Of a DNA stretch of 61,674 nt, positions 4,300 to 55,587 are shown piece by piece; position 1 is the first letter of the stretch, and every line of letters starts with the position of its first letter. The stretch covers positions 1 to 61,674 of the forward strand of contig VAXP01000114.1 of NCBI GenBank assembly GCA_005884125.1, written 5' to 3'. Source of the DNA: Actinomycetota bacterium (GTDB taxonomy: Bacteria > Actinomycetota > Acidimicrobiia > Acidimicrobiales > AC-35). The translations under genes and the position numbers were made by a program. A model generated the notes under the pieces. It made no database searches, was not told the origin of the DNA, and saw only the letters and a list, made by a program, of their open reading frames with translations.

Positions 4300-4363
4300 G
4301 GAACCCCTCAGGGTCGTACCAAGGCCGATCACCACCCTCAGTACGACCCTGGAGCGGATCCGG

Positions 4364-7318: not shown

Positions 7319-7344
7319 GGCGATGATGGTATGACCGATCGGCC

Positions 7345-38624: not shown

Positions 38625-40060
38625 GCCCCAACCGCGCCGGCCTGCTGGTCCCTGGCTTGTTGCTCCTGCATGGCGCTGAGCACGGCCTGGAAGATCTTCG
38701 CGGCGTCGGCCTCGAGGTGCTCACGGGCCCGCAGCAGGATGTAGGCCCCCAGGTACACCGGTGGGATGATGATCAAGAAGGCGGTGCGGAGGTTGTTGCC
38801 GAAGCTCTGGGACAGCACGGAGACGATGAGGGGGGCGAGGGCGCCTCCGAACACCACCGACACGAGGTTGAAGGCGCCGAACCCGGCCCCCCGGAGGTTG
38901 GCGGGGACGGCGTCGGATAGCCCGGCCCGCAGGCCGGGGATGGCCATGGTGATGACGAAGAAGCCCAGGATCTCCAGGACGAAGGCGGGAGCGAAGGGCA
39001 GGCGCATCCAGGAGATGGCGAAGCACGTGGCCCCCACGATGATGCAGTAGGCGGGGATGGCGACCCTCGCTCCTCGCACACGCGCCGCGTAGCGGTCGGC
39101 GAAGCGGCCGCCGAGGAGGATCCCGGGGACGCCGCCCAGGATGACCATGACGGCGACGTAGCCCTCGGCCCTGCCGTTGGCCACGTGCAGCTGGCGTTCG
39201 TAGAACTGGGGCAACCACGTGCCCACGGCGGTGATCGTGAACAGCAGCGCCGAGACCCCGATGAGGGCGAAGCGCATGGTCGTGATGCTCCAGATGGTGC
39301 GCAGGTCGGCCCGCAACCCCTGGGCCATCTCCCTCAGGAAGGTCCCGAACCCCTCGGTGAAGAGGGGCTGATGGACGGGCTCCTCCCCGAGATCGGGATC
39401 ATCGACGATGCCCACGTGCATGCGGTCGCCTGCGCCCCGCTTGGGCTCCTTCAACCGGTAGGCGAGGAGGGCCACCAGGGTGCTCGGGCCCCCGATCAGG
39501 AGGAAGGCCCACCGCCATCCCAGCGTCGCTCCCACCGCGCCGCCCAGGCCCACGCCCAGACCGAAGCCGGCGATCATCATGATCTGCTGGATGGCGAAGG
39601 CCCGGCCCCGCTGCTCGGTGGGGTAGTAGTCCGACAGCAGGCTGGCGGCCGAGGGCTCGGTGATGGCCTGGCCGAAGCCCAGCGCGCCCCGGAGGGCGAC
39701 GAGAGAGGGGAAGTTGGGGGCCGCCGCGCCCAGGGCGGTCAGCCCCGACCAGGCGACGATGGTGTGGCCGATGGTGCGGGTGCGGTGCCAGCGGTCGGCC
39801 AGGTAGCCCGCGGGCACGGTCACCAGCCCGTTGACCAGGATGAAGGCCGACGTCAGCACGCCGATGGCGGCGTCGCCTATGTGGAAGGCCTGCTTGAGGG
39901 GGGTGATGAGGCCCCGCACGATGCTCTGGTCGGTCGAGTCCACCAGCAGCACGAGTCCCAGGGCCCACATGGGCCAGGTGGAGACCGGCGCGGGAGCGGG
40001 CTTGGTCCCTGCCGTCTCCGGGCCGGGCGGGCTCCCCGGCGGGGTCACGGGCCCGGCCAT
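38600..40060 (-). CDS. MFS transporter (Spinster-like)
   Basis: Coding-like from ATG 40060 (MAGPVTPPG...WPMWALGLVLLVD). Twelve-TM pattern with GYLADRWHRTR (MFS motif A) and ASLLSDYYP. The upstream part of the 713-aa track ORF is Arg/Pro-rich shadow sequence. Confidence 0.8.
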   Translation of the reverse strand: MAGPVTPPGSPPGPETAGTKPAPAPVSTWPMWALGLVLLVDSTDQSIVRGLITPLKQAFHIGDAAIGVLTSAFILVNGLVTVPAGYLADRWHRTRTIGHTIVAWSGLTALGAAAPNFPSLVALRGALGFGQAITEPSAASLLSDYYPTEQRGRAFAIQQIMMIAGFGLGVGLGGAVGATLGWRWAFLLIGGPSTLVALLAYRLKEPKRGAGDRMHVGIVDDPDLGEEPVHQPLFTEGFGTFLREMAQGLRADLRTIWSITTMRFALIGVSALLFTITAVGTWLPQFYERQLHVANGRAEGYVAVMVILGGVPGILLGGRFADRYAARVRGARVAIPAYCIIVGATCFAISWMRLPFAPAFVLEILGFFVITMAIPGLRAGLSDAVPANLRGAGFGAFNLVSVVFGGALAPLIVSVLSQSFGNNLRTAFLIIIPPVYLGAYILLRAREHLEADAAKIFQAVLSAMQEQQARDQQAGAVGAQDDASHQ

Positions 40061-40152
40061 GGAGGGAAGATTCTGAGCCTCGGGCCCGGCTCCTGCCCCG
40101 GGGCCCGGCTCCGTACCCGTGATCCCCGCGGCGGGCCGGGTCCAAGGGCCCC

Positions 40153-43083: not shown

Positions 43084-43178
43084 GCTCTGCACTTCCGACG
43101 TCCCGGCGACGCCGCCTCGGAACGGACGAGGGCGACGCGGGACAATGTCCAGCCGCCAAACCAAGGGAGCGACCACGG

Positions 43179-43586: not shown

Positions 43587-43648
43587 CCGGCGGGCGGGCC
43601 CACCGCCCCTTGCCCAGGCCGCGAGGTGGGCTGCCGTAGCCTGATCCA

Positions 43649-44998
43649 GTGCGGAAGATGGCGGGAGCGACGGTAGGGGCGGCGCCCCCAGGGTCCTCCC
43701 GCGCTCCGCATGGCGTCCGCACCCTGCTGCGCCACCAGGGCTTTCGCCGGCTCCTCATCGGCCAGTCGGTGTCGGCCCTGGGCGACTGGATGGCCACGGT
43801 GGCGCTCATGGCCCTCGTCCTCGACATCACGGGCTCGTCCACCGCGGTGGCGGGGATCCTGGTGCTGCGACTGGCTCCCGCCGCGTTGGCCGGCCCGCTG
43901 GCGGCCCGGGCCATAAGGAAGTGGGACCGGCGCAGGACGATGGTCGCCATGGATGGCCTGCGGGCGGGCATCGTCGTGCTCGTCCCCATGGTCCATGCCG
44001 TCTGGTGGGTCTTCGTCTGGGCCTTCGTGCTCGAGCTCGCGGGGCTGGTGTTCCTCCCGGCGCGGGACGCGGCCGTGCCCGACCTGACGCACTTCGACGA
44101 CCTCCCCCTGGCCAACGGGCTGGTGCTGGGCTCCTCCTACGGCACCATCCCCCTGGGCGCGGGCGCCTTCGTCCTGTTCAGCGCCCTGTTGGGGGGTCAC
44201 TCGGCCCGCAGCCCCCAGATGTTGGCCGTGTTCTCCCTCGACGCCCTCACCTATCTGGTGTCGCTGGCCATGATCCTGCCCATAACCGAGCTACGGGGCG
44301 CCCCCGCGCCCGAGGGGGACGCGGTGGACGGAGCCGGCCACGAGCTTCGCTTCCGCGACGCCTTCCGCCTGCCCCTGCTGCGAGCGGTGGGCCCCGCCAC
44401 CGTGCTGGCTGCCCTGGGCATAGGCAGCCTCTTCTCGCTGGGGATCGTGTTCGTGCGCGATGTGCTCGGGGCCAGCAACGCCGAGTTCGGGGTGCTCGTC
44501 ATCCTCTTCGGGGCGGGGGCGGCCGCCGGCCTGGGCGTGCTGGAGTGGAGCGGGGCATCGGGCAGCGACGTCGTGTTCGCCTGCGTCGCGGTCCAGGGGG
44601 CGGTGATCGCGGTGATGAGCCTGGCGCCCGGCATCGGTCCCGCCTTTCTGGGCGCGGCGGGCTTCGGCGCCTCGACGGCGGCGGCCCTGGCCGCGGCCAT
44701 GAGCGTGCTGCAGGAGAAGCTGTCCGATCGCGAGCGCATCGTCGCCTTCGCCGCCTTCCACGTCCTCATCCGGGCCGGCCTGGCCCTGTCGGCGCTCGCC
44801 ACCGGGCTGGCCGCAGACCTCATCGGCCGGGTGCACTGGCCCGTGCTGGGCACGCTGCCCCCGGCCCGGGTGGTGCTCTTCGGCTCGGGCGCGGCCGTGT
44901 TCGTGAGCTCGGTGATCGGCAGGCAGGCCACCGCGACCCTCGTGCGGGGCGCGGACCCGGGCGCCGCGCCAGACGCATCCCCGACCGTCGCCACGTGA
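43649..44998 (+). CDS. MFS transporter (EntS/MFS_3-like)
   Basis: 449-aa ORF. LLRHQGFRRLLIGQSVSALGDWM is a typical N-terminus of this MFS subgroup. Multiple TM helices. Confidence 0.8.
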   Translation: MRKMAGATVGAAPPGSSRAPHGVRTLLRHQGFRRLLIGQSVSALGDWMATVALMALVLDITGSSTAVAGILVLRLAPAALAGPLAARAIRKWDRRRTMVAMDGLRAGIVVLVPMVHAVWWVFVWAFVLELAGLVFLPARDAAVPDLTHFDDLPLANGLVLGSSYGTIPLGAGAFVLFSALLGGHSARSPQMLAVFSLDALTYLVSLAMILPITELRGAPAPEGDAVDGAGHELRFRDAFRLPLLRAVGPATVLAALGIGSLFSLGIVFVRDVLGASNAEFGVLVILFGAGAAAGLGVLEWSGASGSDVVFACVAVQGAVIAVMSLAPGIGPAFLGAAGFGASTAAALAAAMSVLQEKLSDRERIVAFAAFHVLIRAGLALSALATGLAADLIGRVHWPVLGTLPPARVVLFGSGAAVFVSSVIGRQATATLVRGADPGAAPDASPTVAT

Positions 44999-45636
44999 GC
45001 CTGCCCCGTCGGGCCTGGCGCTCTCCGGTCGTGGTCCTGGCCGCCGGCTACGCCGCCGGAGCCGTCCCGTTCTCCAACATCGCGGCCCGCCGGGCTCGGG
45101 GCGTCGACCTGCGAGCCGTGGGTACGGGCACGGTCTCGGGTACCGCCCTCTACCGGGTGGCGGGGTTCGGCCCGCTGGCCCTGGCCGGCATTTTCGACGT
45201 GGCCAAGGGTGCGGTGGGCCCGCTGCTGGCCGGCCGCGACCGCCCCGTGCTGGCCGCGGCCAGCGGGGGCCTGGCCGTGGCCGGCCACAACTGGTCCCCG
45301 TTTCTGGCCGGCGCCGGGGGCCGGGGCGTGTCGACGGCCATGGGCGCGCTGGCCCCCCAGCAGCCGGCGGGGGCCCTGTTCCTCCTGGCCGGGCTGAGCC
45401 TGGGGCGTGTGGGCGGCGAGTCGGCCGTCGGCGTTCTCATCGCCGATCTGGCCATGGTCCCCCTGCTGTCGCGGCTGGGCGGCCGCCGGGGCCGCCTGGC
45501 CGGCGGGGCCGTGGTCCTGCCCATGGTGCTGAAGCGGCTGTTGGGAAACGCCCGGCCCCGGGGGGCGGGCCCCGCCGTCTATCTGTGGCGCCTGGTGCTG
45601 GACCGCGATCGCCCGTCGCCCGACCCCGCCGCGTAG
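44995..45636 (+). CDS. plsY: glycerol-3-phosphate acyltransferase PlsY
   Basis: GTG overlaps the previous stop (GTGA). Contains GAVPFSNIAARR...GTGTVSGTA...FDVAKGAVGPLLAG...AVAGHNWSPFLAGAGGRGVS, the PlsY motifs. Confidence 0.8.
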   Translation: MSLPRRAWRSPVVVLAAGYAAGAVPFSNIAARRARGVDLRAVGTGTVSGTALYRVAGFGPLALAGIFDVAKGAVGPLLAGRDRPVLAAASGGLAVAGHNWSPFLAGAGGRGVSTAMGALAPQQPAGALFLLAGLSLGRVGGESAVGVLIADLAMVPLLSRLGGRRGRLAGGAVVLPMVLKRLLGNARPRGAGPAVYLWRLVLDRDRPSPDPAA

Positions 45637-46469
45637 CCCGGGCCGGACGGGCGCTCCCACCACCAGGCCAGGCCCACCAGCCCGGGGCCGGTGTGGGCCA
45701 CCATCACCGGGCTGAACTCGGCCACGAAGGCGGTGGCCGGGGCCACGGTGGCGGTCACCCGCTCAACCAGGCGCCGGGCCTCGTCCTCGGCCCGGGCGTG
45801 CATGGCGGCCAGGTGGAGGCTCGACCCGCCGCGCCCGGCCAGGCAGCGGGCGACAATGCGGTCGAGGGCCGCCTCCCTGCTCTGCGACGGCCGCAGGGCC
45901 CGGGCCCGGCCATGGGAGAAGGCGAACAGGGGCTGCAGGCCCAGCACCCGCCCCGCCCACCCGGCCAGGCCGGGGACGCGTCCGCTGCGCACCAGCTGCT
46001 CCAGCCCGGGCATGGTGGCCACCAGCTGGACCCGCCCGGCCACGTCGAGGGCGGCGGCCTCGACCTCCTCGATGGTCGCGCCCGCGGCCGCGGCCCGGGC
46101 TGCGGACAGGGCGACCAGGCCCTCTGCTCCTGCGGCCGTGCGGCTGTCGACGACGCGGACCCCGTGTTCCAGCGTCGTCGCCGCCAACCAGGCCGACTTG
46201 TAGGTCCCGCTCATCTCCGACGCCAGCGTCACCACCACCGCGCCCCCGGCGGCCAGGGGCTCGAGCACCTCCAGGAACTCACCGGGCGAGGGCGCCGATG
46301 TGGTCACCTTCTCGGCCGTTCGGGCCACGACGTCCTCCGTCGCGACCGCGCCGTCGGGGTGGTCCTCGCCGCCGAGAACGAGGTGCTGGGCCACCACGCG
46401 GATGCCCCAGCGCTCCACCAGGTCCGCAGGAAGGGAGGCCGCGCTGTCGGTGACGACGGCGACCGTCAC
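45579..46469 (-). CDS. DegV-family fatty-acid-binding protein
   Basis: VTVAVVTDSAASLP...TSAPSPGEF... is a typical DegV N-terminus. GTG 46469 is taken as the start. There is no stop codon between it and the upstream gene: the track gives one 791-aa ORF, 45579..47954. Confidence 0.75.
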   Translation of the reverse strand: MTVAVVTDSAASLPADLVERWGIRVVAQHLVLGGEDHPDGAVATEDVVARTAEKVTTSAPSPGEFLEVLEPLAAGGAVVVTLASEMSGTYKSAWLAATTLEHGVRVVDSRTAAGAEGLVALSAARAAAAGATIEEVEAAALDVAGRVQLVATMPGLEQLVRSGRVPGLAGWAGRVLGLQPLFAFSHGRARALRPSQSREAALDRIVARCLAGRGGSSLHLAAMHARAEDEARRLVERVTATVAPATAFVAEFSPVMVAHTGPGLVGLAWWWERPSGPGYAAGSGDGRSRSSTRRHR

Positions 46470-47699
46470 CAGCGCAGGACCCCGCCCCTCCCACCTCGCC
46501 CCGCGGCCCCGCGGCCGGCTTCGCCGTCGGCGCCGGGCGCCGATGCCGTCGGGCTGCCGTCGAGTGGGAGCGTTGCGGGCACGGCTCCAGTGTGACAGGG
46601 CGATCGGGCCCTTCCGGACACCCGGTGGGGAGGAGCCGGGCTCAGGGGCTGGGGCGGGGGAGGCGGCGGAGGCGGTGCCGTTGGGAGGGGGGAGCGCGCC
46701 GGCCGGCGAGAGGGTGGCGTCGATCCCGGCAGGCTCGAGATCGACGCGCTGGGCCTGCCGGGACACGACGAGGGCGCCGGCCCTGACCCAGTCCTCCCGC
46801 AGCACTATGCCGGCCGGGTCGATGCAGAGGTCGTCCACGTCCGTGCCCCGCACGAAGGTCCACACCACCGACCCGTAGACCAGGATCTGGGGCGTCTCGG
46901 GGTCGGGGAAGGCGAAGCGCTCGCGGTCGCGCAGCTCGAAGCCGGCCGGCGCGGGCGGGTCGGCCAGGAAGGTGTCCACGGGCTGGCCCGGTGCGAGGGA
47001 GGCGGCGGAGGCGGTGCCGTTGGGAGGGGGGAGGGCGCCGGCGGGCGAGAGGGTGGCGTCGATCCCGGCAGGCTCGAGATCGACGCGCTGGGCCTGCCGG
47101 GACACGACGAGGGCGCCGGCCCTGACCCAGTCCTCCCGCAGCACGATGCCGGCCGGGTCGATGCAGAGGTCGTCGTGCTCGGAGCCGGTCAGGGGGCCGA
47201 GAGGTCCCGCGGGAGGGTCTCGGAAGCGGTACACCTGGCAGGCCCGGCCCGCCACCGCGCCCGGGCCCCGGGGCTGGGCCAGGCCCCTCCGGGCCGCCTC
47301 GCCCACCACGCCCAGCAGGTCCTGGTCCTCCGTGCCCAAGCCGGGCTGGCGGGCGGAGACGTCCTGGATGCCGTTGGGCGACAGCGAGTAGAGGCGGTCG
47401 GCCGTGGTCAAGGTGCCGCCCACGGGCCGGTCGCCGGGGCCCGGCGGGGCGCTGTAGGTGGCGTCACGGACGCGGAAGGGACGGTCGACGGTGAGCAGCT
47501 CCCACGTCCTGGTCTGCCCTCCGGGGCTCAGGTGGTCGACCTGGTACAGGACCTCATAGCGCGGGCTCTGGGCCGCGAAGGCCACCCCGGCCGGGATCCT
47601 GCGGGTGCCCGAAGAGGGACGCAGGGCGACGGCGGTGAGGACGAGGCCGGCGACCAGGAGGACGGCGAGGGCGACGGGGGCCCTGGCGCGGGCCGTCAC
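46470..47699 (-). CDS. membrane-anchored hypothetical protein carrying an internal 59-aa duplication; 3' end undefined (frame runs into degV)
   Basis: GTG 47699 (or TTG 47702) overlaps the TGA of the upstream ORF (GTGA). TM helix APVALAVLLVAGLVLTAVAL, then a globular part. The last 180 nt or so translate to Arg-rich sequence that looks non-coding. Confidence 0.55.
46658..46835. repeat. direct repeat copy A (178 bp)
   Basis: 175 of 178 positions are identical to 46997..47174 (offset 339 bp, which is 113 codons). Mismatches are at 46695, 46704 and 46806. Confidence 0.95.
46997..47174. repeat. direct repeat copy B (178 bp)
   Basis: Partner of 46658..46835. Both copies encode DDLCIDPAGIVLREDWVRAGALVVSRQAQRVDLEPAGIDATLSPAGALPPPNGTASAAS. 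Confidence 0.95.
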
Positions 47700-48360
47700 C
47701 AAAGAGGAAGAAGCCCGAGCCTCGCCCAGGGAGAGGTGGCGGAGCTCGGGGCCGGCGCCGCGCCCGCCCTGGGCGCCGCCGCCCCCGCTGCCCCCGAACC
47801 GCCGGGCGAGCACCCCGCCGTTGTGGCTACGGTGCCCGCGGCGTCGGCGGGGGGCGGCTGGCCCGTGGCCGAGGACGCGCCCTGCTGGGCCTGCTGCAGC
47901 CCGCCCACCGCGGTGGCCACCACAGGCACCGGCAGGTTGGCGTCTGGCGCGCACTTCGGTCCCTGCGACGGCGGCGGAGGTGGGGGAGGCGGGGGCTGGT
48001 CGGCGTTGCTGGGTGGCGCGGCGTCAGATCCGGGCGTGTAAGGCGGCGCGGACCCGGAGTCCGTCGCGGCCGGGGTTGCCGGCCCCGCCGGGCCCGACGC
48101 GGCGAGGGCCGCGCCCGAATCGGCCGCCGGTGTGGCCGGGCCGCCGGGGCCACGGGTGGAGGGGCTGCCGCCGCCTGGGGCGCGGCCGCGGCCAGGCGAG
48201 GGGCGCGGGCCGAGCTCGACGTCCGGTCCAGAGGCTGGAGCACGCCGAGGACGACGACCCAGGCCGCGCCCAGGGCGTAGAGGGCCCGGTAGCGGCGGAC
48301 GTGGACGATCAGGTGGAACAGGGGCTGGCCCAGGAGGCCGTCGCCCAGGGCTCCCTCCAT
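47696..48360 (-). CDS. small membrane-anchored low-complexity protein, apparently frameshifted
   Basis: ATG 48360 opens MEGALGDGLLGQPLFHLIVHVRRYRALYALGAAWVVVLGVL, an anchor paralogous to that of the binding protein at 55587. That frame then turns Arg-rich. The -1 frame is open throughout and reads ...PATPAADSGAALAASGPAGPATPAATDSGSAPPYTPGSDAAPPSNADQPPPPPPPPPSQGPKCAPDANLPVPVVATAVGG...LPLW*, with its TGA overlapping the next gene's GTG. Confidence 0.45.
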
Positions 48361-48512
48361 GGTGGCCGGGGGCGTCGTGGCCCCGGCGCCGGCGGCGGCC
48401 GCAGCTTCGGTCCCGGCGCGGGCCGGGGCTGCCCCGGCCTGGGAGCCCGCGGGCTGGGCCACCCGCTCCCGCCGGCGCCAGCGGGGGACCGCGAAGGGGC
48501 CGGAGGTGGCGC

Positions 48513-51500
48513 TCACCGTTTCGCCCCTACCGGGCTGCGCCCGGGCAGGACGTCCCGCTCGTCCCTGGTGCCCAGGTAGGACTCCACCACGGTCGGGTGG
48601 TGGAGGACCTCCTGTGGGAGCCCGTGGGTGACCACCGAACCCCGGTCGAGCGCGACCAGGTGGTCGGCCAACCCGGTGATGAGGGGCATGTCGTGCTCGA
48701 TGACAAGCATGCTGCACCCGAGGTGGCGCTGCACCTGGCGGAGCAACGGTCCGAGGGCCTCGGTCTCCTTCTGGGCTATACCCGATGAGGGCTCGTCCAG
48801 TAACAACACCGACGGGCGATGGGCGAGGATGGCGGCGATCTCGACCATGCGCCTGGAGCCCGTGGACAGCTCGGAGACGAACTTGTCCCGGAAGGCTCGC
48901 AGCCCGAGCAGCCGCAGGACCTCCTCCACCCGTCGGTTGAGATCGTCCTCCGACATGGTCACCGCCGGGAGGTGGAAGAGGGCGGCCACCGCGCTGGGCG
49001 TCTCGATGGAGCGCTCGAAGGCCACGGCGATGGCCTCCCGCACCGTGAGCGAGGGCCAGAGGCGGGCGTCCTGGAAGGAGCGCCCCACCCCCGCCGCGGC
49101 CCGCTCGGACGCGTTCCTGCGGGACAGGTCGGCGCCGTTGACGATCACCCGGCCTCCGTCGGCGGGCGTGAATCCGCACACCAGGTCGAAGATGGTGGTC
49201 TTGCCCGCGCCGTTGGGTCCGATGAGGCCCAGGATCTCCCCCTGGTGGAGGGCGAGGTCGACGTCGCTCACCGCGGCGATGCCGCCGTAGCGCTTGGTGA
49301 GGCCGTGGGTCTCCAATACGACCGGGCCTTCCAGGATGGCGGCGCGCCGGGCCTGGTCCTCCAGGTCCGACTTCGTGGGCTTGGCCGGTGTGCGCCGGCG
49401 TCGAGAGGAGGCCGTCTCCACGGCCTTGGTCTGCGCCCCCCGCACGGCGCCGTCCCTGTCACCGGCGCCGCTGCCGTTGCCGTGCCCGTTGGCCGAGGCC
49501 GCGCCCTGCAGGAACACGGCACGCAGCACGTCGGGGCGGTCGAGCAGCTCCGAGGTCAGGCCGCTGAAGCGGATCTCTCCCTTCTCCATGAACAGGGCTC
49601 GCTTGGCCAGGCGCAGGGCCAGGTTGACCGACTGCTCGACCAGGATCACGGTGGTGCCGTTGTCGTGGATGGCTTCCACGATGCCCAGCAGCCGCTCCAC
49701 GACCGTGGGCGCCAGGCCCAGGGACAGCTCGTCGATGAGCAGCAGCCGGGGCCGGGCGATGAAGGCCTGCCCCAGGCTCAGCATCTGTTGCTCCCCGCCC
49801 GACAGGTTGCCCGCGGGCGTGTCCCACCGGTCCCGGAGGATGGGGAAGTACTCGAGGACGCGCTCGGTTGCCTCCCGCAGGCGGGGCCGGTCCTTGCGGT
49901 ACATCCACCCCGCGGCCCGCATGTTCTCCCCGACCGTGAGGGTGGGGAACACGCCCCGACCACCGGGTACCTGCACGATCCCGAGCCCCGATGTCTGCCT
50001 GGCGTCGGCGTGGGTGATGTCGCGGCCCTCGAAGAAGATGGAGCCGCCGATGGGATCGACCAGTCCGCTGATGCCCTTGAGGAGGGTCGACTTCCCCGCG
50101 CCGTTGGTCCCGAGGAGGGCCAGGATCTCTCCCTTCTGCACGTCGAAGCTGACGTCGAAGAGAACCTGCACCCGGTCGTAGGCCATGTCGACGCCCCTGC
50201 AGGCGAGCAGGGCGTCGGTGTCGGCGCTGGCCTTGGCCTTCACGGCCTGGTCGATGTCCCGGCCCACGAAGGCACGCACCGTCGTCTCGATGGCGCCGCC
50301 CAAGGTCACCAACAAGCCCAGGACGAAGACCGCGACCCGCTCGCCGTGGGCGTCGCCGATGGAACCCACGATCGGCGTCCACAGCAGAGCGCCCCCCGCG
50401 TACCAGAGCAGCGACCAGGCGAAGGCCTGGGAGCGCAGGCGCGGGGGGGCGACCAGGGCCACCATGGTCTGGTAGGCCGGCAGGAAGCCGATGATGCCCA
50501 TGGCCAGGAAGCAGACGGCGGCGATGGAGACCGGCTGCCAGGGCGCCGCGGCCATGGCCAGCATGCCGATGCCCGAGGAGATGACCAGCCCCCCGTTGAC
50601 GATGGGGAGCAGCTCGGGGCGCTGGCGGCGGACGCTGGACTGGGCCCAGTACCCGCCGAGGAGGATCCCCGCCAGGCTGAAGACGTTGTAGACCGCGGTG
50701 ATGTTGCCCCGACCCACCGAGCCCAGGTGGTAGACGTCCTTGAAGAACAGGCTCAGGTAGGTCACGAAGGGAAGGGTCCCGGCGCCGAAGAAGAAGGCGG
50801 CCACCCAGGTACGGCGCAGGGACCGGATGGCCCTCACCCGCCGGTAACCCTCGCCCATGCTGGCCCGCTCCTCGTCGGGCACGGTGACCGCCAGTGAGGC
50901 TCCGCGGGCCGGGTCGCGCAGTCGGAGGAGGACGGCGACCAGCAGGAGGGTGGGGATGGCGAGGATGACGAAGGTCGGGCGCCAGCCGATGGCCGCGCCC
51001 AACGCCCCGGCGAGCACGCCCGCGACCGCCTGGGCACCGGTGCTGCCCAGGCGGTAGACGGCGAAGACGCCCGACAGGCCCTCGGGCGGGTAGTAGTCCG
51101 ACAGCAAGCTGGCGTGTACGGGTTCGTTGACGAGCTGGCCCACGCCGCCGGCCAGGCGGGCCACGATGAGGATGGCCAGGGCCGGGGCCAGGCCGGTGAA
51201 GATGGCCGTCACCCCCCACACCACGGCGCCTACGGCCGACAGCCGGATGCGGTTGAATCGGTCTCCTCCGTAGCCGACGGGCACCGCCAGCAGGATGGGG
51301 AGCACCAGGCTGAAGGTGGCGATGGTCGTGAACCCGCCGTTGGAGAGGTGGAAGGTGTCGCGGATCTCCGGGCCGAGGACGGCGAAGGCGGTGGCGTCGA
51401 AGCGCTCCACGGCGCTGAGGGCGGCCAGCACGACGAGCGGGACCCAGCCGACGGGGCCCAGCAAGCCCGACATCTGACGAATGCCGTTCAGGGGTGAGCG

Positions 51501-51524
51501 GGCGTAACGGGCCCGGTCAGCCAT
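48513..51524 (-). CDS. triple-fusion protein: MFS-type 12-TM domain + LivF-like ATPase + LivG-like ATPase
   Basis: 1003-aa ORF. Residues 1 to about 430 are MFS-like (GYGGDRFNR, ASLLSDYYP; similar to the stand-alone MFS at 38600..40060). Residues about 440-680 form an ABC ATPase (GTNGAGKST, LSGGEQQ, LLLIDELSLGL). Residues about 745-1003 form a second ABC ATPase (GPNGAGKTT, LSTGSRR, LLLLDEPSSG). The start overlaps the permease stop by 8 nt. Confidence 0.9.
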   Translation of the reverse strand: MADRARYARSPLNGIRQMSGLLGPVGWVPLVVLAALSAVERFDATAFAVLGPEIRDTFHLSNGGFTTIATFSLVLPILLAVPVGYGGDRFNRIRLSAVGAVVWGVTAIFTGLAPALAILIVARLAGGVGQLVNEPVHASLLSDYYPPEGLSGVFAVYRLGSTGAQAVAGVLAGALGAAIGWRPTFVILAIPTLLLVAVLLRLRDPARGASLAVTVPDEERASMGEGYRRVRAIRSLRRTWVAAFFFGAGTLPFVTYLSLFFKDVYHLGSVGRGNITAVYNVFSLAGILLGGYWAQSSVRRQRPELLPIVNGGLVISSGIGMLAMAAAPWQPVSIAAVCFLAMGIIGFLPAYQTMVALVAPPRLRSQAFAWSLLWYAGGALLWTPIVGSIGDAHGERVAVFVLGLLVTLGGAIETTVRAFVGRDIDQAVKAKASADTDALLACRGVDMAYDRVQVLFDVSFDVQKGEILALLGTNGAGKSTLLKGISGLVDPIGGSIFFEGRDITHADARQTSGLGIVQVPGGRGVFPTLTVGENMRAAGWMYRKDRPRLREATERVLEYFPILRDRWDTPAGNLSGGEQQMLSLGQAFIARPRLLLIDELSLGLAPTVVERLLGIVEAIHDNGTTVILVEQSVNLALRLAKRALFMEKGEIRFSGLTSELLDRPDVLRAVFLQGAASANGHGNGSGAGDRDGAVRGAQTKAVETASSRRRRTPAKPTKSDLEDQARRAAILEGPVVLETHGLTKRYGGIAAVSDVDLALHQGEILGLIGPNGAGKTTIFDLVCGFTPADGGRVIVNGADLSRRNASERAAAGVGRSFQDARLWPSLTVREAIAVAFERSIETPSAVAALFHLPAVTMSEDDLNRRVEEVLRLLGLRAFRDKFVSELSTGSRRMVEIAAILAHRPSVLLLDEPSSGIAQKETEALGPLLRQVQRHLGCSMLVIEHDMPLITGLADHLVALDRGSVVTHGLPQEVLHHPTVVESYLGTRDERDVLPGRSPVGAKR

Positions 51525-53739
51525 CGACGGCTCCGCTCGTCACCGGCACGCCCACCGCGCCCGCGGGGCGGGGGACGCCGACGAGCTCGCCGTCGCCGCC
51601 GGTGATCTCCCCGGTGGGCCGGCGGACGAGCCCGGCCAGGGCGAGGTCCAGGGCGACGGGCGCCTCCTCCGTCTCGACGCGGACGTCGGCGACCAGGCTG
51701 GGAACGACCAGGCCCCGCCGGTTGGCGACCCACCGCAGGGCGCCGTCCCGGATGACGTAGAGGAACCCACCCAGGCCCTCAGGCAGAACGAGCAGCAGGC
51801 CCACGATGCCGGCGCCGCTGGCGATCGTCGCCCAGCCGCCCCGCAGGAAGAACTCCGCGCCCTTGATGAAGGTGGCGCCCAGGATCGCCCCGGGCAGGGA
51901 GCTCAGGCCGCCGATCACGACCATGGAGAAGAGGCGCAGGCTGATGTCGGGGCTGAAGGCGTCGGACTTGAAGGCGGTCTGGTGCAGCACGTACAGGGCC
52001 CCGGCCGCCCCGGCGATGGCGCCGGAGATGGCGAAGGCTGTGAGCTTGGCCTTGGTGGTGTTGATCGACATGGCCTGGGTGCCCGGCACGTTGTCGCGCG
52101 TGGCGATCAGCACACGCCCCGTCCTGCTGTTGCGCAGCGACCGGGCCGCCATCATCACCAGCACCAGCGCCCCCAGGCACACGAAGTACATGCCGCGGTC
52201 GCTGCCGAAGGCGATGCGGTCCCACAGCGAGGGACGGGGCACGAAGTCGGGCACGAACCAGGGAACGAAGCGGTGGCGCAGGAAGAAGCTCGAGGAGGTC
52301 ACGGCGAAGGCCAGGGTCGTCACGGCCAGGAACGGACCCGAGATGCGCAGGGCGGGCAGGCCGATGAGGAAGGCGGCCCCCGCCGCGACCAGAGCCCCCG
52401 CGGGGACGGCCAGGAAGAGGTCCCAGCCGTGGGCCACCAGCAGCGTCCCGGTGGCCGCCCCGCCGAAGCCGACCAGGGCCCAGTGGCCCAGCGAGAGGTG
52501 CCCGGCCCAGCCCGTCAGCACCACCAGGGAGACCGCCACCATGCCGTAGATGAGGATGAGGGCGGCCAGCTGGGAGCGGGCGGGCGAGGCGACGAAGGGG
52601 AAGGCGAGCACGCCGACGAGCAGCAGGGCGCGCAGGACCAGGAGCCCGGTGCGCACCTCGGGGAGGGTGCGCAGCTCCGCCGGGATGGGCCTGACCTCCT
52701 TGAGGGCGCGCCAAGTCCCCACCCCGGACTCCACGGCCCGGTTGAAGCGCTCCCGCTTGACCAGCAGGGCGGCCAGGATGACCAAGAGCAGGAGGGCGTC
52801 GACGTAGGTGCTGTTGGAGAAGGTCCAGGCGCCCAGGGACTGCACGACGCCCAGCCCCACGGCGGCCACGGCGGTGAGTGCCAGGCTGGTCATGGCCCCT
52901 ATCACCGCCGCCGTCAGCACGTAGAGAAGGAGCGTGTAGCCGCCTGAGCTGACGCTGGTGAAAGAGGCGAAGCCCAGCAGGGGGACGCGGAGGAGGATGG
53001 CCAGGGCGGAGAGGAAGCCGCCGATGGCCCACACGAGCGTGGACAGGCCCCGCACGGGGATGCCGAGGAGTCGGGCCCGGTCCCCGTTCTCGGCCGCGGC
53101 CCGGATGGCTACGCCGTAGTCGGTGAAGCGCAGGAAGGCGGTCAGGGCGAGCAGCACGACGGGCACCACGACCAGGGCCAGCACCGCGTTGCCGTCGAAC
53201 ACGACCGGGTAGAGCTGGAAGTGGGCGCTGAAAGGCGTCGTGAACTGGGCCGCCTTCAGGGCGCCGTTCCACTCCACCGGGATCTGCACCGAGAAGCCGT
53301 TGAGCACCTGGGCCAGTCCGATGGTGGCCACGGCCACGATGAGGCGGGGCGCGCCGCCGAAGCGCCGGATGATCAGGATCTCGATGAGGCCGCCGAGCAC
53401 GACGGCCATGACGAGCCCGGCGGCGATGGCGAGGAAGTAGTTCCATCCCAGTCGCAGGCGGAACTCGATGGCCAGCACGGCGGCGACGCCACCGAGCTCG
53501 GCCTGGGCGAAGTTGATGACCCGGTTGGCCCGGTAGATGAGCACGAGGCCCAGGGCCACGAGCGCGTAGAGGGAGCCGAACATGGCACCCTGCAGCACGA
53601 TGCCCAGGGGGAGGCCCCGGGGGAGGACGTGGTCTCCCAGGACCCAGACGACGACGGCGATGGCGGCTCCCAGGGCCGCCCGTCCCGGCGCTCCCAGGCT
53701 GAGGGAGAGCCCCTTGTCGCGCTCAGCCGCGGTCTTCAC
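51517..53739 (-). CDS. fused LivH-LivM branched-chain-amino-acid-type ABC permease
   Basis: 740-aa ORF with two permease halves (GAMFGSLYALVALGLVLIYRANRVINFAQAE... and ...HLSLGHWALVGFGGA...). About 18-20 TM helices. Confidence 0.9.
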   Translation of the reverse strand: MKTAAERDKGLSLSLGAPGRAALGAAIAVVVWVLGDHVLPRGLPLGIVLQGAMFGSLYALVALGLVLIYRANRVINFAQAELGGVAAVLAIEFRLRLGWNYFLAIAAGLVMAVVLGGLIEILIIRRFGGAPRLIVAVATIGLAQVLNGFSVQIPVEWNGALKAAQFTTPFSAHFQLYPVVFDGNAVLALVVVPVVLLALTAFLRFTDYGVAIRAAAENGDRARLLGIPVRGLSTLVWAIGGFLSALAILLRVPLLGFASFTSVSSGGYTLLLYVLTAAVIGAMTSLALTAVAAVGLGVVQSLGAWTFSNSTYVDALLLLVILAALLVKRERFNRAVESGVGTWRALKEVRPIPAELRTLPEVRTGLLVLRALLLVGVLAFPFVASPARSQLAALILIYGMVAVSLVVLTGWAGHLSLGHWALVGFGGAATGTLLVAHGWDLFLAVPAGALVAAGAAFLIGLPALRISGPFLAVTTLAFAVTSSSFFLRHRFVPWFVPDFVPRPSLWDRIAFGSDRGMYFVCLGALVLVMMAARSLRNSRTGRVLIATRDNVPGTQAMSINTTKAKLTAFAISGAIAGAAGALYVLHQTAFKSDAFSPDISLRLFSMVVIGGLSSLPGAILGATFIKGAEFFLRGGWATIASGAGIVGLLLVLPEGLGGFLYVIRDGALRWVANRRGLVVPSLVADVRVETEEAPVALDLALAGLVRRPTGEITGGDGELVGVPRPAGAVGVPVTSGAVDG

Positions 53740-53743
53740 GGCG

Positions 53744-55587
53744 TCACTCGGGCTTGATGGGCGGCTCGTCGTTGTTCCACTGGCCCGACTGGAAGCGCTG
53801 ACCGCCGTAGGTGGCGATGTAGTTGCCGGCCTTGCCGTCCACCGCGATCGCCTTGGAGTCCCAGAAGACCTCCTTGGAGTCGATGATGGCGGTGTGCTCG
53901 TGGGCGAAGGACCAGGTGCCGAACGGAGCCGTCGGGCCGCCGGCCGTGGGCAGGGCCCTGCTCCCCGACGCCAGGTTCGTGATGTTCAGGGTGGGACCGC
54001 CCGCCTGCAGCTGGTTGTACATGGAGATGAGCTGGGCGTAGATGGCGTAGCCGCCCAGGGGGAGGTCCTTGCCGCTGGCCGCCTTGTAGGCGGTGTTGGC
54101 CTCGCCGGCCTTGGCGTTGGCCGCGGCCTCGTCACCCAGCTGGCTCATGCCGAAGACGTGGCCGTCGGACTGGTCCTGGGCCCCGCTCTCCCACAGCCGG
54201 GCGAAGGAGTCGCTGTCCTGCAGGGCCACGCCTATGTCGAGCCACTCGGGGTGGTACTGCTGGTTGTCGGCCTGCTGCATCAGGAACAGGCTCGAGTAGG
54301 GGTCGCAGGCCATGATGATCGTGGTGGCCCCCGCGGCGTGGAACTGGACAATCCCCTTGGCCGCCTCGCTCGGGAACTGGGAGACGTCGAGCGTGTAGTT
54401 GTACCGGGACGTTATGGGCACGTGGTAGATGGTCTTAAGGTCGGTCTCGGAGATGTTCACGCAGCGCTGGTAGCCGTCGTTGTTGGGGACGTAGGTGGCG
54501 AACTTGCGGTTCGCCACCTTGTAGGTCGCGTCGCCCGCCCACTTGGCGGGGCGGTTGGCCAGGCGCTTGCCGATGTATTCGGCCACGTCGTGGGCGATGC
54601 GCTCGCACTGAGGTGCGTTCCGGCCCAGACGTAGGGGTCCCAGCGCTGGTACCACAGCTCGGGGAAGTAGGGGGCTCCGAGGGGCAGGTACAGCCCGTAG
54701 CGCTTGGCGCACTCGGCGAAGGGCTGGCTCACGTACATGGAGTTGCTGGCAGGCAGCTCGATGACGCCGAAGGCCTTTACCGAGCTGGCGATGGCATCGG
54801 CGTCGGCGCACGCCGCGTCTTGGCCCTGGCTCTGAGCCTCCGAGGTGCCGTTGCCCTGGCCGTTGAAGTCGACCAGCTTCACCTGGCGGCCGAAGAGCTC
54901 GAAGTTCTTGTTGAAGTAGGGCACCAGGGCGTCGAGGATCTGGCGCTGCTCGGCGTTACTGGGGTTGCCCGCCTGCTGGTTGAGCTTGTCCAGGGCCTGG
55001 GCGTTGGGGCCGCTGGCGTCCGACGTGGCGCGCACGGCGATGGTGATGGTGTCTCCGGTGATGCCACGGACGCCGTTGGACCCGCCGTTGTTGCCGCTGT
55101 AGGCGGCCACGCACGGGGCGGCGTACTGCGAGAACTGGAGCTGACGCACGCCGGGCTTGCAGGCGACGCCGGCGCGCGTCGTGCCCGTCCCGACCGCGGC
55201 GGGGGCGACGGGGCCGCCCGACGTGCTGGCCGCCGGACCGCGGGCCCCCGCCGCCACGGCCCCGGCGCCGGCCGCGGCTCCCCCGCCGCCGGCCGCGGCC
55301 GCTGTCCCGCCCGCCCCGGCCGCGGGGCCAGCGGCCGCCCCCGCTCCGCTGTTGTCGGCCCCACCCACGCCGGCCACGGCCGAGCCGCCTCCCTTGTCGC
55401 TCGAGACCGAGGAGCTGCCGTGGTGCTCGAGGGTGGGCAGAAGGGCGATCATGACCGCCCAGATGGTCCCGAACACGTAGAGCGGCATGTAGCGGCGCAC
55501 ATGGAAGGTGGCCTTGAGAGCCGACCGCGAGACCGGGTCGGGCTGGTTGTCCAGAAGCTCCCGCTCCTGTTCCCGAGTGGTCAGCAT
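53744..55587 (-). CDS. membrane-anchored LivJ-type substrate-binding protein, reading frame broken by one frameshift near 54619
   Basis: Track ORF 54457..55587 holds the TM anchor, a Gly/Ala linker and the N-lobe up to ...PELWYQRWDPYVWAG. Track ORF 53744..54811 holds the rest, from ...NAPQCERIAHDVAEYIGKRL onward. The two overlap and are related by a -1 frame change. Confidence 0.75.

What the first reader, a model, noticed from the sequence alone, without database searches (positions are those of the whole stretch)
48513..51524. MFS transporter domain covalently fused to both ATPase subunits of a Liv-type ABC importer
A single 1003-aa ORF joins three parts: a complete 12-TM MFS-like domain (motif A GYGGDRFNR, ASLLSDYYP), a LivF-like nucleotide-binding domain, and a LivG-like nucleotide-binding domain. 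The operon also has LivH and LivM fused into one 740-aa permease. Its binding protein is tethered by an N-terminal TM helix and a Gly/Ala linker rather than a lipobox. The whole importer would therefore be two polypeptides plus a tethered receptor, carrying an extra secondary-transporter domain of unknown role. That domain could be a regulatory or sensor module, a second translocation path, or a membrane anchor for the ATPases. The MFS domain is paralogous to the stand-alone MFS at 38600..40060 (shared ASLLSDYYP region). I know of no functional characterisation of such an MFS-ABC chimera.
Basis: partly seen in the sequence, partly recalled or inferred. Interest (0 to 1): 0.65.

Follow-up and report, generated by a model that had tools for sequence, protein, structure and literature searches.

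The report
MFS transporter fused to ABC ATPases
A soil actinobacterium encodes one 1003-residue protein that joins a complete Spinster-like secondary transporter to both ATPase subunits of a Liv-type ABC nutrient importer; the fusion is real, conserved in many Acidimicrobiia and unstudied, so how two different transport machines work in one complex is an open, testable question.

Summary
ORF 48513..51524 (-) encodes MFS_1 (aa 35-381, 12 helices), a LivF-like NBD and a LivG-like NBD with the BCA_ABC_TP_C tail. It is not an assembly chimera. An independent 99.5%-identical contig encodes the identical protein. Contigs from four soil runs span the junction without indels. 54 species-level genomes carry one uninterrupted MFS-NBD-NBD ORF.

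The cassette is conserved: TM-tethered SBP, fused LivHM, then MFS-LivF-LivG. The SBP has no Pfam, NCBIfam or PDB sequence match, but its AF2 model has a LivJ-like fold. In the window the SBP gene carries a 2-nt insertion (54611-54612) that other assemblies lack.

The MFS domain is Spinster-like (best PDB match HnSpns). It keeps motif A, the buried Asp/Arg pair and the charge-relay Asp. In the window's clade it has lost the Arg42/Glu129 equivalents. Stand-alone MFS genes nest inside the fused clade and share every invariant residue.

Best reading: an obligate ATPase subunit of a HAAT-type importer that carries a still-functional proton-coupled MFS module as a second, linked transport path. Anchor-only and regulatory roles remain open. 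No literature was found. I rate it a new variant of a known kind, interest about 0.6.

The parts
48513..51524 (-). Fusion gene, 1003 aa: MFS - LivF-like NBD - LivG-like NBD
   Evidence: ORF and translation. Pfam and NCBIfam domains. Identical protein on independent contig L084. AF2 model with pLDDT 85.8 and pTM 0.71.
50277..51524 (-). Spinster-like MFS domain (aa 1-416), 12 TM helices. Motif A is G84..D88-R89..R92. TM1 has D43, TM4 has R123..G127, and the end of TM4 has D143 (SLLSDYYPP).
   Evidence: MFS_1 E 2e-37. A profile of the domain hits HnSpns 6e8j at E 1.4e-29. Helices from the AF2 DSSP. Residue mapping to HnSpns.
50214..50276 (-). Junction (aa 417-437): a confidently predicted helix (aa 417-434) links TM12 directly to the first beta-strand of NBD1. 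D423 is conserved in 54 of 56 fused sequences; the other 2 have a gap.
   Evidence: pLDDT 91-97 across aa 411-440, helix H417-434 followed by strand E440. D423 conserved in fused and stand-alone relatives. Junction spanned without gaps by contigs of 4 runs.
49509..50213 (-). NBD1 (aa 438-672), LivF/UrtE-like. Walker A GTNGAGKST, signature LSGGEQQ, Walker B IDELSLGLAP, and VEQS in place of the H-loop His. From my own recollection, not a tool result, E. coli LivF has the same Gln substitution.
   Evidence: NCBIfam UrtE and LivF best stretches at aa 438-672. Best PDB match 1ji0. Motif conservation.
49374..49508 (-). Low-complexity linker between the two NBDs (aa 673-717), predicted disordered
   Evidence: pLDDT below 50 for aa 672-713. 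Lowest conservation of any segment, 28% mean identity.
48513..49373 (-). NBD2 (aa 718-1003), LivG/UrtD-like with the BCA_ABC_TP_C tail. Walker A GPNGAGKTT, signature LSTGSRR, Walker B LDEPSSG, H-loop IEHD.
   Evidence: NCBIfam UrtD and LivG best stretches at aa 736-986. PF12399 at aa 964-988. PDB match 1g6h, MJ1267 LivG.
51517..53739 (-). Fused LivH-LivM permease, 740 aa. Its stop region overlaps the fusion gene's ATG by 8 nt.
   Evidence: Two BPD_transp_2 stretches. LivH/UrtB-like at aa 48-328 and LivM/UrtC-like at aa 366-658. Same gene in the same position in 50 or more loci.
53744..55587 (-). Membrane-tethered LivJ-fold binding protein, 613 aa once 2 extra nt at 54611-54612 are removed. TM anchor 55429..55491, Gly/Ala linker about 55213..55428, binding domain 53744..55212.
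   Evidence: Two-frame split located by tblastn. The 2-nt insertion is absent from all covering contigs of X1, X2 and X4. The corrected protein equals P0121. AF2 pLDDT 87.3. Foldseek finds LivJ/LivK-type SBPs at E ~1e-13 and TMt 0.66-0.75.
47689..48516 (-). Downstream gene (275 aa, Pro/Ala-rich). Its GTG start overlaps the fusion's TGA stop (GTGA). Its N-terminal anchor resembles that of the SBP. It sits where gene 'e1' sits in other loci.
   Evidence: Sequence. Called on L084 at 3568-4395. A secreted or anchored ~330-aa gene directly after the fusion in at least 23 loci. Membership in the system is inferred from position only.
46835..47692 (-). Conserved neighbour 'd2/e2' (364 aa on L084; N-terminal TM, no known domain). 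Only the part collinear with L084 is given, because the window has a duplication after 46835.
   Evidence: tblastn finds homologues (29-46% identity) next to the cassette in about 30 loci. No Pfam, NCBIfam or PDB sequence match.

Best explanation
Shown. The gene encodes the only ATPase subunit of a self-contained SBP-dependent ABC importer of the HAAT (Liv/Urt-type) family. The importer is built from three genes: a membrane-tethered LivJ-fold receptor, a fused LivH-LivM permease, and this protein. Here LivF-like and LivG-like NBDs are joined in tandem, and the LivF-like one is attached through a short structured helix to the C-terminus of a complete 12-TM Spinster-like MFS domain. Both NBDs have intact catalytic motifs. 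MFS topology (N and C termini inside) puts them in the cytoplasm, so they can dock under LivHM while the MFS domain sits beside LivHM in the membrane.

Inferred. The MFS domain is not a dead anchor. It is a still-working proton-coupled carrier, giving the complex a second translocation path held at 1:1 stoichiometry with the importer. The ABC half would take up the receptor-bound solute using ATP. The MFS half would move a chemically or metabolically linked amphipathic or anionic solute using the proton gradient. By analogy with Spns-type exporters, that is most likely efflux or return of a product or carrier moiety.

The substrates are unknown. Cavity residues differ between clades, so specificity has probably diversified together with the receptor.
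For: Architecture and membership
- Domain calls.
- The same three-gene cassette in the same order in about 55 of the 80 best genome loci and in every context inspected. No separate LivF or LivG gene lies in the cassette.
- 54 of 55 fused loci have one uninterrupted ORF.
- In the AF2 model the NBD pair superposes on the tandem-NBD subunits DppD and OppD (TMt up to 0.61).
- Walker A, Walker B and signature motifs are invariant in both NBDs.
- The receptor has a LivJ-like fold.

MFS still functional
- The closest solved relative is the proton-coupled HnSpns (E 1.4e-29).
- These positions are invariant in 56 fused sequences: motif A D88/R92, TM1 D43, TM4 R123 and D143. In HnSpns they are the D87-R91-D142 charge-relay network and the D41-R122 protonation pair.
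- The MFS domain is 51% conserved across the family, against 28% for the inter-NBD linker.
- 23 stand-alone MFS genes at 35-51% identity share every invariant position.
- These stand-alone genes nest inside the fused clade. They are never monophyletic in 100 bootstraps, need 6-8 state changes, and the ingroup root reconstructs as fused in 99 of 100. The module therefore repeatedly survives as an autonomous transporter.

The MFS-LivF link is the conserved core
- A second architecture has MFS plus LivF only, with LivG as a separate gene.
- The junction helix is predicted with pLDDT above 90 and carries the conserved D423.
Against: - No transport, expression or structural data exist. Metatranscriptome contigs from the same study show nothing.
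- The HnSpns substrate-binding Arg42 and master-switch Glu129 equivalents are A44 and Q130 in the window. They vary across the family; only the deep clades keep R44. E134, one helix turn further on, is kept instead in 48 of 56 fused sequences. Coupling chemistry may therefore differ or be lost.
- The periplasmic-gate Asp (HnSpns D60) is Ser, Thr or Asn in most fused forms.
- In locus L046 the two NBDs are fused to LivHM instead, and the MFS relative is a separate gene. This fits the idea that what matters is tethering the NBDs to a membrane protein.
- Physical fusion is not required for an import/export pair, so the fusion itself does not prove parallel transport.
- I could not inspect model coordinates or model the complex.
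Confidence: 0.45

Rival explanations
1. Anchor or scaffold only. The MFS domain has lost transport and serves as a membrane tether and assembly platform. It keeps the tandem NBDs at the membrane next to LivHM and fixes stoichiometry.
For: In L046 the same NBD pair is fused to LivHM in one 1245-aa chain, with no MFS attached. Fusion of parts is a general trend in this system: LivH-LivM, LivF-LivG and a TM-tethered SBP. The Arg42 and Glu129 equivalents are not conserved in the window's clade.
Against: A pure anchor would not need an invariant motif A, the buried D43/R123 pair or the charge-relay D143. It would not stay at the same conservation level as stand-alone relatives. Stand-alone descendants arise repeatedly from the fused clade and keep all invariant residues. 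A single TM helix would be enough for anchoring.
Confidence: 0.25
2. Regulatory module (transceptor). The MFS domain binds a ligand or senses the proton-motive force or pH. Through the rigid TM12-helix-NBD1 connection it gates ATP hydrolysis by the importer, giving trans-inhibition or activation. It transports little or nothing itself.
For: The linker is short, helical, confidently predicted and conserved (D423), not a floppy tether. The fusion is always to the LivF-like NBD. Established precedents, from my own knowledge, are transporter-like sensors such as Rgt2/Snf3 and the regulatory domains on the ABC-importer NBDs MetN, ModC and MalK.
Against: D423 and the C-terminal helix are equally conserved in stand-alone relatives and in the window's own distant stand-alone MFS. 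They are therefore a family feature, not an adaptation for coupling to an NBD. Known NBD regulatory domains are C-terminal and soluble. No evidence here shows ligand sensing.
Confidence: 0.17
3. ATP-energised MFS. The NBD dimer's closing and opening is mechanically transmitted to the MFS domain, converting a secondary carrier into a primary pump or an ATP-gated carrier. This would resemble ArsB working with the ArsA ATPase.
For: Covalent, rigid attachment of TM12 to NBD1. Loss of the Glu129-type proton switch in the window's clade could mean the domain is energised some other way.
Against: The NBDs are ordinary LivF and LivG types that co-occur strictly with a LivHM permease, which supplies the canonical coupling partner. 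MFS proteins have no coupling helices for NBD docking. Only one NBD is attached to the MFS. The proton-site residues D43 and R123 are retained.
Confidence: 0.07
4. Artefact. The ORF is an assembly chimera or a read-through created by a sequencing error between adjacent MFS and ABC genes.
For: The window does contain local errors or variants elsewhere: a 2-nt insertion at 54611-54612 and a ~185-nt duplication at 46651-46835.
Against: The identical protein is encoded on an independent contig. Four runs give gap-free contigs over the junction. 54 genomes, including two cultured strains with complete chromosomes (L063, L075), have the same uninterrupted ORF.
Confidence: 0.01

Closest known systems
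LivJ/K-LivHMGF and UrtABCDE (HAAT family ABC importers, TC 3.A.1.4)
   Same: Two BPD_transp_2 membrane domains. A LivF/UrtE-type NBD and a LivG/UrtD-type NBD with the BCA_ABC_TP_C tail. A type I LivJ-fold receptor. Operon organisation.
   Different: Five polypeptides are reduced to three: LivH-LivM fused, LivF-LivG fused, and the receptor tethered by a TM helix. An extra 12-TM MFS domain sits on the LivF end. All equivalog scores are below cutoff except UrtE, which passes only by summing two NBDs. The receptor is undetectable by Pfam, NCBIfam or PDB sequence profiles. The substrate is unknown.
HnSpns / MsSpns, bacterial Spinster-family MFS transporters (PDB 6e8j; PMC9440201)
   Same: Best solved-structure match (E 1.4e-29). 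Shared features: motif A, the TM1 Asp (D41 maps to D43), the TM4 RxxxG Arg (R122 maps to R123), W102 maps to W103, and the 'DYYPP' charge-relay Asp (D142 maps to D143).
   Different: Only about 25-30% identical. The substrate Arg42 and proton switch Glu129 are A44 and Q130 here, with E134 conserved one turn later. The periplasmic-gate D60 is S61. The domain is covalently joined to ABC ATPases, which no characterised Spns is, as far as I know and as far as my searches show.
Tandem-NBD subunits of actinobacterial ABC importers (M. tuberculosis OppD Rv1281c, DppD; PDB 8j5q, 8wdb)
   Same: Two NBDs in one chain serve an SBP-dependent importer. They are the best Foldseek matches of the model (E ~1e-23, TMt 0.43-0.60).
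   Different: They belong to another ABC family (PepT). They have no membrane domain attached, and their permeases are not fused.
LplT-Aas (MFS lysophospholipid flippase fused to acyltransferase/acyl-ACP synthetase)
   Same: An MFS domain of a lipid-type subfamily is fused at its C-terminus to cytoplasmic catalytic domains that act on the same pathway (my own knowledge). The NCBIfam model PRK08633 weakly hits the window's stand-alone MFS.
   Different: The partner is a metabolic enzyme, not the motor of a second transporter. No sequence relationship to the fused domain was tested.
ArsAB arsenite pump
   Same: A secondary-type carrier works together with an ATPase (my own knowledge).
   Different: The association is non-covalent. 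The ATPase family is different and the carrier is not an MFS. There is no second complete permease.

Membership tests
Major facilitator superfamily | 12 TM helices in two 6-helix halves; full-length match to the MFS_1 profile | tested here: met
   MFS_1 at aa 35-381 covers profile positions 3-345 of 347, E 2e-37. The AF2 DSSP shows 12 long helices between aa 28 and 414, with a cytoplasmic loop at aa 200-233.
Major facilitator superfamily | Motif A (G-x3-D-R/K-x-G/x-R-R/K) in the TM2-TM3 loop | tested here: met
   G84-Y-G-G-D88-R89-F-N-R92. D88 and R92 are invariant in 56 fused and 23 stand-alone relatives.
Spinster-like MFS subfamily (HnSpns as reference) | TM1 Asp (D41), TM4 RxxxG Arg (R122), TM3 Trp (W102), charge-relay Asp at the end of TM4 (D142) | tested here: met
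   D43, R123(..G127), W103 and D143 align to these residues. Their roles are taken from PMC9440201. D43, R123 and D143 are invariant, and W103 is conserved in 53 of 56 fused sequences. Best PDB sequence match is 6e8j at E 1.4e-29.
Spinster-like MFS subfamily (HnSpns as reference) | Substrate-binding Arg42 (TM1) paired with proton switch Glu129 (TM4) | tested here: not met
   The window has A44 and Q130. Across the family, position 44 is R in 17 of 56 fused sequences and otherwise mostly Q, L or A. Position 130 is mostly R or L, with Q, F, K and N in the rest, and never E. E134 is conserved instead in 48 of 56.
Spinster-like MFS subfamily (HnSpns as reference) | Proton-coupled transport of amphipathic or lipid-like substrates | not testable with these tools
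   Needs transport or DEER-type assays.
HAAT-family ABC importer (LivHMGF / Urt type) | Two BPD_transp_2 (LivH/LivM-type) membrane domains | tested here: met
   PF02653 hits twice in the 740-aa upstream protein, E 2.5e-59. The two halves are LivH/UrtB-like and LivM/UrtC-like.
HAAT-family ABC importer (LivHMGF / Urt type) | LivF-type plus LivG-type NBD pair, the LivG type with the BCA_ABC_TP_C tail; intact Walker A, Walker B and signature motifs | tested here: met
   motifs. Best PDB matches are 1ji0 and 1g6h.
HAAT-family ABC importer (LivHMGF / Urt type) | Cognate type I (Peripla_BP_6 / LivJ-like) substrate-binding protein | tested here: inconclusive
   Sequence models fail. There is no Pfam or NCBIfam hit, and a family profile finds nothing among PDB sequences. 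Only 4 of 120 homologues carry a precomputed PF13458 hit. The fold test is positive: the AF2 model (pLDDT ~97 in the domain) matches LivJ/LivK-type SBPs at E ~1e-13 and TMt 0.66-0.75.
HAAT-family ABC importer (LivHMGF / Urt type) | Equivalog of E. coli LivF/LivG (branched-chain amino-acid specificity) | tested here: not met
   LivG scores 293.9 bits against a cutoff of 362. LivF scores 261.7 against 441.
Urea ABC transporter UrtABCDE | UrtB, UrtC, UrtD and UrtE equivalog scores above cutoff, and a UrtA receptor | tested here: not met
   UrtE at 302.5 exceeds its cutoff of 285.8, but the score sums two NBD stretches. UrtD scores 299.6 against 304.1. UrtB scores 78.6 against 250.3 and UrtC 77.4 against 296.2. 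UrtA structures appear only among many similar-scoring LivJ-fold hits.

The most novel reading that the evidence does not exclude
The two energy-coupling machines are mechanically cross-wired. Through the rigid TM12-helix-NBD1 connection, ATP-driven closure of the LivF/LivG dimer would drive or gate alternating access of the MFS domain. Alternatively, proton-driven MFS movements would gate the ATPase. Either way this would be a hybrid primary/secondary transporter class: one complex that integrates ATP and proton-motive force, or couples import and export strokes of two substrates.
Probability: 0.12. Interest if true: 0.9.

Novelty: new variant of a known kind. Interest (0 to 1): 0.6.

Why it matters
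ABC importers and MFS carriers are the two largest transporter superfamilies. They are normally treated as separate machines with separate energy sources. Here a complete member of one is covalently built into the motor subunit of the other, and this has been conserved across a whole actinobacterial class.

If the MFS module is active, the complex is a natural example of stoichiometrically coupled dual-path transport, for instance uptake plus return or efflux. If it regulates, it is a new kind of ABC-importer control domain. If it only anchors, it shows how readily a full transporter fold can be repurposed as scaffolding.

All three outcomes can be tested directly:
- Two cultured strains with complete genomes carry the cassette: Actinospongicola halichondriae Hal317 and Salinilacustrithrix flava EGI L10123.
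- The system has only three genes.
- Natural controls exist: stand-alone MFS descendants, an MFS-LivF form with a separate LivG, and a single-chain LivHMFG without MFS.

The system also contains a receptor family, and two accessory secreted proteins, that no sequence model currently recognises. Pipelines currently name the protein either 'MFS transporter' or 'branched-chain amino acid transport ATP-binding protein'. Each name hides half of it.

Tried and rejected
1. Expression evidence. Three metatranscriptome runs from the same study as the DNA runs hold none of the locus. Only short matches to conserved ABC motifs from other genes were laid on it.
2. Literature. Eight full-text searches used combinations of MFS, ABC, fusion, LivF/LivG, HAAT, Spinster, TCDB and domain architecture. 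None returned a description of an MFS-ABC NBD fusion (one search was used for Spns biology). One attempt to open the 2012 'MFS revisited' review failed because it is not held. TCDB itself could not be consulted.
3. Urea-transporter assignment. Rejected; see the membership test.
4. Third MFS gene in the window, 43649..44998 (+). No significant similarity to the fused domain.
5. Substrate clues from genome context. The flanks differ between loci. Acyl-CoA synthetases and dehydrogenases flank L082. DegV and PlsY flank the cassette in the window. A carboxylesterase flanks L088. Peptidase_S15, GH2 and HpaB accompany the MFS-LivF class. An amidohydrolase and TetR flank L087. No consistent theme emerges.
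6. Neighbours of stand-alone relatives. They include an F420H2 quinone-reductase-like protein, a glycosyltransferase and a LiaF-like protein, and are likewise inconsistent.
7. Rfam, tRNA and promoter/terminator scans of the window gave nothing relevant.
8. Domain packing. I could not examine how the MFS and NBD domains pack in the AF2 model, because coordinates are not exposed. I could not model the LivHM + MFS-FG complex because of the size limit and the input restrictions.
9. Foldseek on the whole fusion model is dominated by NBD hits, so it adds nothing about the MFS part.

Full report
**1. What is in the window**

The window is about 73% G+C. ORF 48513..51524 on the minus strand starts with ATG and encodes 1003 aa.

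- Pfam finds a full-length MFS_1 match at aa 35-381 (E 2e-37), two ABC_tran domains, and the BCA_ABC_TP_C tail at aa 964-988.
- NCBIfam places a LivF/UrtE-type NBD at aa ~438-672 and a LivG/UrtD-type NBD at aa ~736-986.
- Immediately upstream, overlapping the ATG by 8 nt, a 740-aa ORF (51517..53739) carries two BPD_transp_2 domains. LivH and LivM are therefore fused.
- Upstream of that lies the receptor gene (53744..55587).

**2. Is the fusion real?**

Yes.

- An independent 13.4-kb ENA contig (L084) is 99.5% identical to window 38653-52083 and encodes the identical 1003-aa protein.
- Logan contigs of four different soil-metagenome runs cover 49900-50600 without a single gap. This stretch contains the junction, at about nt 50190-50280.
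- A search of 5.8 billion proteins returned 118 or more full-length proteins of 949-1090 aa with MFS_1 plus ABC_tran, at 53-87% identity.
- A scan of one genome per species with an MFS-domain alignment found 412 related loci. Among the best 80, 55 have the MFS part directly followed by NBD1 and NBD2. In 54 of these the whole stretch is one uninterrupted reading frame.
- Carriers are almost all Acidimicrobiales, Acidimicrobiia or Actinomycetota MAGs. Two are cultured strains with complete chromosomes: Actinospongicola halichondriae Hal317 (L063) and Salinilacustrithrix flava EGI L10123 (L075).

**3. The cassette**

In every context inspected, the fusion gene is the last of three co-directional, often overlapping genes (L088 has the receptor gene after the fusion gene; L089 keeps the three-gene layout but its 821-aa upstream product has no Pfam hit on record):

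- a 560-650-aa protein with no Pfam hit;
- a 690-745-aa LivHM;
- the ~980-1040-aa fusion.

No separate LivF or LivG gene is present in the cassette, so the fusion protein is the importer's only motor. Flanking genes are not conserved.

The first gene is the receptor.

- It has an N-terminal TM helix at aa ~33-53.
- A 70-residue Gly/Ala-rich segment follows, which AF2 leaves disordered.
- A ~480-residue domain follows, modelled at pLDDT ~97.
- The best structural matches of that domain are LivJ/LivK-type binding proteins. Their ligands include leucine, 4-hydroxybenzoate, p-coumarate, a fatty acid and urea. Scores are E ~1e-13 and TMt 0.66-0.75 at only 12-15% identity.
- No sequence model sees it. 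There are no Pfam or NCBIfam hits, and a 63-sequence family profile finds nothing among PDB sequences at E <= 1.
- Five invariant cysteines and a sixth nearly invariant one fit an extracytoplasmic protein.

In this window the receptor gene is split over two frames.

- tblastn with intact homologues places the break between 54616 and 54610.
- Every contig covering that site in runs X1, X2 and X4 lacks two nucleotides at 54611-54612.
- Removing them gives a 613-aa protein that is 100% identical over its full length to database protein P0121.

The frameshift is therefore a local error or private variant of this assembly. It is not a feature of the system.

**4. The MFS domain**

A profile of the domain matches the bacterial Spinster homologue HnSpns (6e8j) far better than anything else: E 1.4e-29, with the next hit at 8e-15.

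I used the residue roles described for HnSpns (PMC9440201) and the HMMER alignment. The family keeps the following HnSpns features:

- the motif-A charge-relay residues (D87/R91 map to D88/R92);
- the TM1 proton-site Asp (D41 maps to D43);
- the buried TM4 Arg of the RxxxG motif (R122 maps to R123);
- W102, which maps to W103;
- the TM4-end Asp of 'DYYPP' (D142 maps to D143).

D43, D88, R92, R123 and D143 are invariant, and W103 is nearly so, in 56 fused sequences and 23 stand-alone relatives.

Two other HnSpns residues are not kept. The substrate-binding Arg42 and the master switch Glu129 are A44 and Q130 in the window. Across the family, deep-branching clades have R44 together with R/K130 and E/D134. 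The crown clade that includes the window has hydrophobic or polar residues at 44 and 130 and keeps E134.

The scaffold for proton-driven alternating access is therefore conserved, while the cavity has diversified.

The AF2 model has pLDDT 85.8 and pTM 0.71.

- It shows 12 TM helices.
- A confident helix (aa 417-434, pLDDT above 90) then runs straight into the first strand of NBD1.
- The linker between the NBDs (aa 672-713) is disordered.
- D423 in the junction helix is conserved in 54 of 56 fused sequences. It is equally conserved in stand-alone relatives, so it is a family feature and not an adaptation to fusion.

**5. The NBDs**

Both have conserved Walker A, Q-loop, signature and Walker B Asp-Glu motifs. 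NBD1 has VEQS in place of the H-loop His, and NBD2 has a normal IEHD. From my own recollection, not a tool result, E. coli LivF has the same Gln substitution.

The NBDs are the most conserved parts of the protein. Mean identity to the query is 73% for NBD1, 65% for NBD2, 51% for the MFS domain and 28% for the inter-NBD linker.

The whole-model Foldseek search is led by tandem-NBD subunits of M. tuberculosis importers: DppD and OppD, with TMt up to 0.60 for ATP-bound DppD. Fused NBD pairs therefore have actinobacterial precedent, and the model places the two NBDs in a canonical dimer.

**6. Natural variants that bear on function**

(a) Stand-alone MFS genes at 35-51% identity occur in 23 of the 80 loci.
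- In a neighbour-joining tree with 100 bootstraps they are never monophyletic.
- 6-8 state changes are needed.
- The ingroup root reconstructs as fused in 99 of 100 replicates.
- The module has repeatedly left the fusion and persisted with every invariant residue. This argues that it is a competent transporter.

(b) A second architecture has MFS plus one NBD (~675-720 aa), found in 19 proteins here.
- In two contexts the order is receptor, LivHM, MFS-LivF, then a separate LivG. A Peptidase_S15-family hydrolase and a GH2 glycosidase follow.
- The constant link is MFS to LivF.

(c) In L046 a single 1245-aa ORF carries LivH-LivM-LivF-LivG, and an MFS relative is a separate gene 3 kb upstream.
- This shows that tethering the NBDs to some membrane domain is a recurrent solution in this lineage.
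- It keeps the anchor hypothesis alive.

**7. Mechanism**

Shown: the protein is the sole, catalytically intact ATPase subunit of a three-gene HAAT-type, receptor-dependent importer, and it carries a Spns-like MFS domain under purifying selection.

Inferred, confidence about 0.45: the MFS domain still transports. It would form a second, proton-coupled path held 1:1 with the ATP-driven import path, probably for a metabolically linked amphipathic or anionic solute.

Rivals:

- anchor or scaffold only, 0.25;
- regulatory transceptor acting through the rigid junction, 0.17;
- ATP-energised MFS, 0.07;
- artefact, about 0.01.

The data do not separate the first three decisively. Doing so needs a model of the complex, domain and point mutants, and ligand screening of the receptor.

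**8. Comparison with the known, and novelty**

It works like, and by domain content belongs to, the HAAT family of ABC importers. It is not an equivalog of LivFGHM or UrtBCDE. Its MFS part belongs to the Spinster-like branch but fails the Arg42/Glu129 criterion.

I found no description of an MFS-ABC-NBD fusion in eight full-text searches. Databases name the protein 'MFS transporter' or 'branched-chain amino acid transport system ATP-binding protein'. I could not consult TCDB or InterPro, so an uncommented database entry may exist.

I rate it a new variant of a known kind. Its parts are ordinary and its combination is unusual. It is widespread, conserved and experimentally approachable.

Noticed in passing
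window 54611-54612 (within the SBP gene 53744..55587, minus strand): Two extra nucleotides split the receptor gene into two frames. All covering contigs from three soil metagenome runs lack them. The corrected protein is identical to database protein P0121. This is a probable assembly error or private variant.
   Followed up: yes
window 46651-46835 versus L084 4917-5101 and 5257-5460: Relative to the 99.5%-identical contig L084, the window carries a second copy of a ~185-nt segment. The copy replaces ~200 nt and merges a 364-aa gene with the DegV gene into one 791-aa ORF (45579..47954) containing a repeated peptide. This may be a tandem duplication or an assembly artefact.
   Followed up: partly
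window ~46835-47692 (-); L084 4392-5486; e.g. L001 8548-9510 (-), L087 12937-14031 (-), L090 12947-14062 (-): A ~364-aa protein with an N-terminal TM or signal segment has no Pfam, NCBIfam or PDB sequence match. It sits next to the cassette, usually convergent, in about 30 loci at 29-46% identity. It may be a fourth component.
   Followed up: partly
window 47689-48516 (-); L087 11940-12950, L090 11931-12983, L089 11973-12953: A fast-evolving, low-complexity gene for a secreted or anchored protein (~275-350 aa, no known domain) directly follows the fusion gene on the same strand in at least 23 loci. It often overlaps the fusion's stop codon. The window's copy has an N-terminal anchor (FHLIVHVRRYRALYALGAAWVVVL) resembling that of the receptor (FHVRRYMPLYVFGTIWAVMIAL).
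   Followed up: partly
L046 12451-16188: One 1245-aa ORF contains LivH, LivM, LivF and LivG: two BPD_transp_2 domains, two ABC_tran domains and BCA_ABC_TP_C. This is a whole ABC-importer core in a single chain. A stand-alone relative of the MFS domain lies 3 kb upstream.
   Followed up: partly
P0273, P0391-P0400; loci L085 1564-3588 and L086 8001-10049: A sister architecture has MFS plus only the LivF-like NBD (~675-720 aa), with LivG as a separate downstream gene. In both contexts seen it is followed by a Peptidase_S15/PepX_C hydrolase and a GH2 glycosidase. L086 also has HpaB and a flavin reductase nearby.
   Followed up: partly
P0121 and alignment A3 (receptor family): The receptor family (over 150 clusters, 560-650 aa) is annotated only as 'hypothetical protein' and escapes Pfam, NCBIfam and PDB sequence profiles. 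Yet it folds as a LivJ-type binding protein with about 100 extra residues, five invariant cysteines and a sixth nearly invariant one.
   Followed up: yes
L005/L011/L032 (MAG SMAG_U982); L007/L018 (MFD01721.bin.2.43); L038/L043; L070/L072/L080: Several genomes carry two or three copies of the cassette or of the MFS relative, which suggests paralogous systems with different specificities. L007 also has an extra MFS-like stretch (32% identity) at 6688-7935, between LivM and the fused MFS.
   Followed up: no
window 43649-46700 (L084 5659-8470): Downstream of the cassette in this organism lie DegV (FakB-like fatty-acid binding protein), PlsY (acyl-phosphate:glycerol-3-phosphate acyltransferase) and an unrelated MFS gene (43649..44998, +). 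This is a lipid-metabolism neighbourhood that is not conserved in other loci.
   Followed up: partly
L013, L026, L038, L043: Contigs labelled Chloroflexi, Candidatus Solibacter and Candidatus Angelobacter carry cassettes that cluster tightly together, and with L021, inside the actinobacterial clade. The cause may be mis-binning, mislabelling or recent transfer.
   Followed up: no
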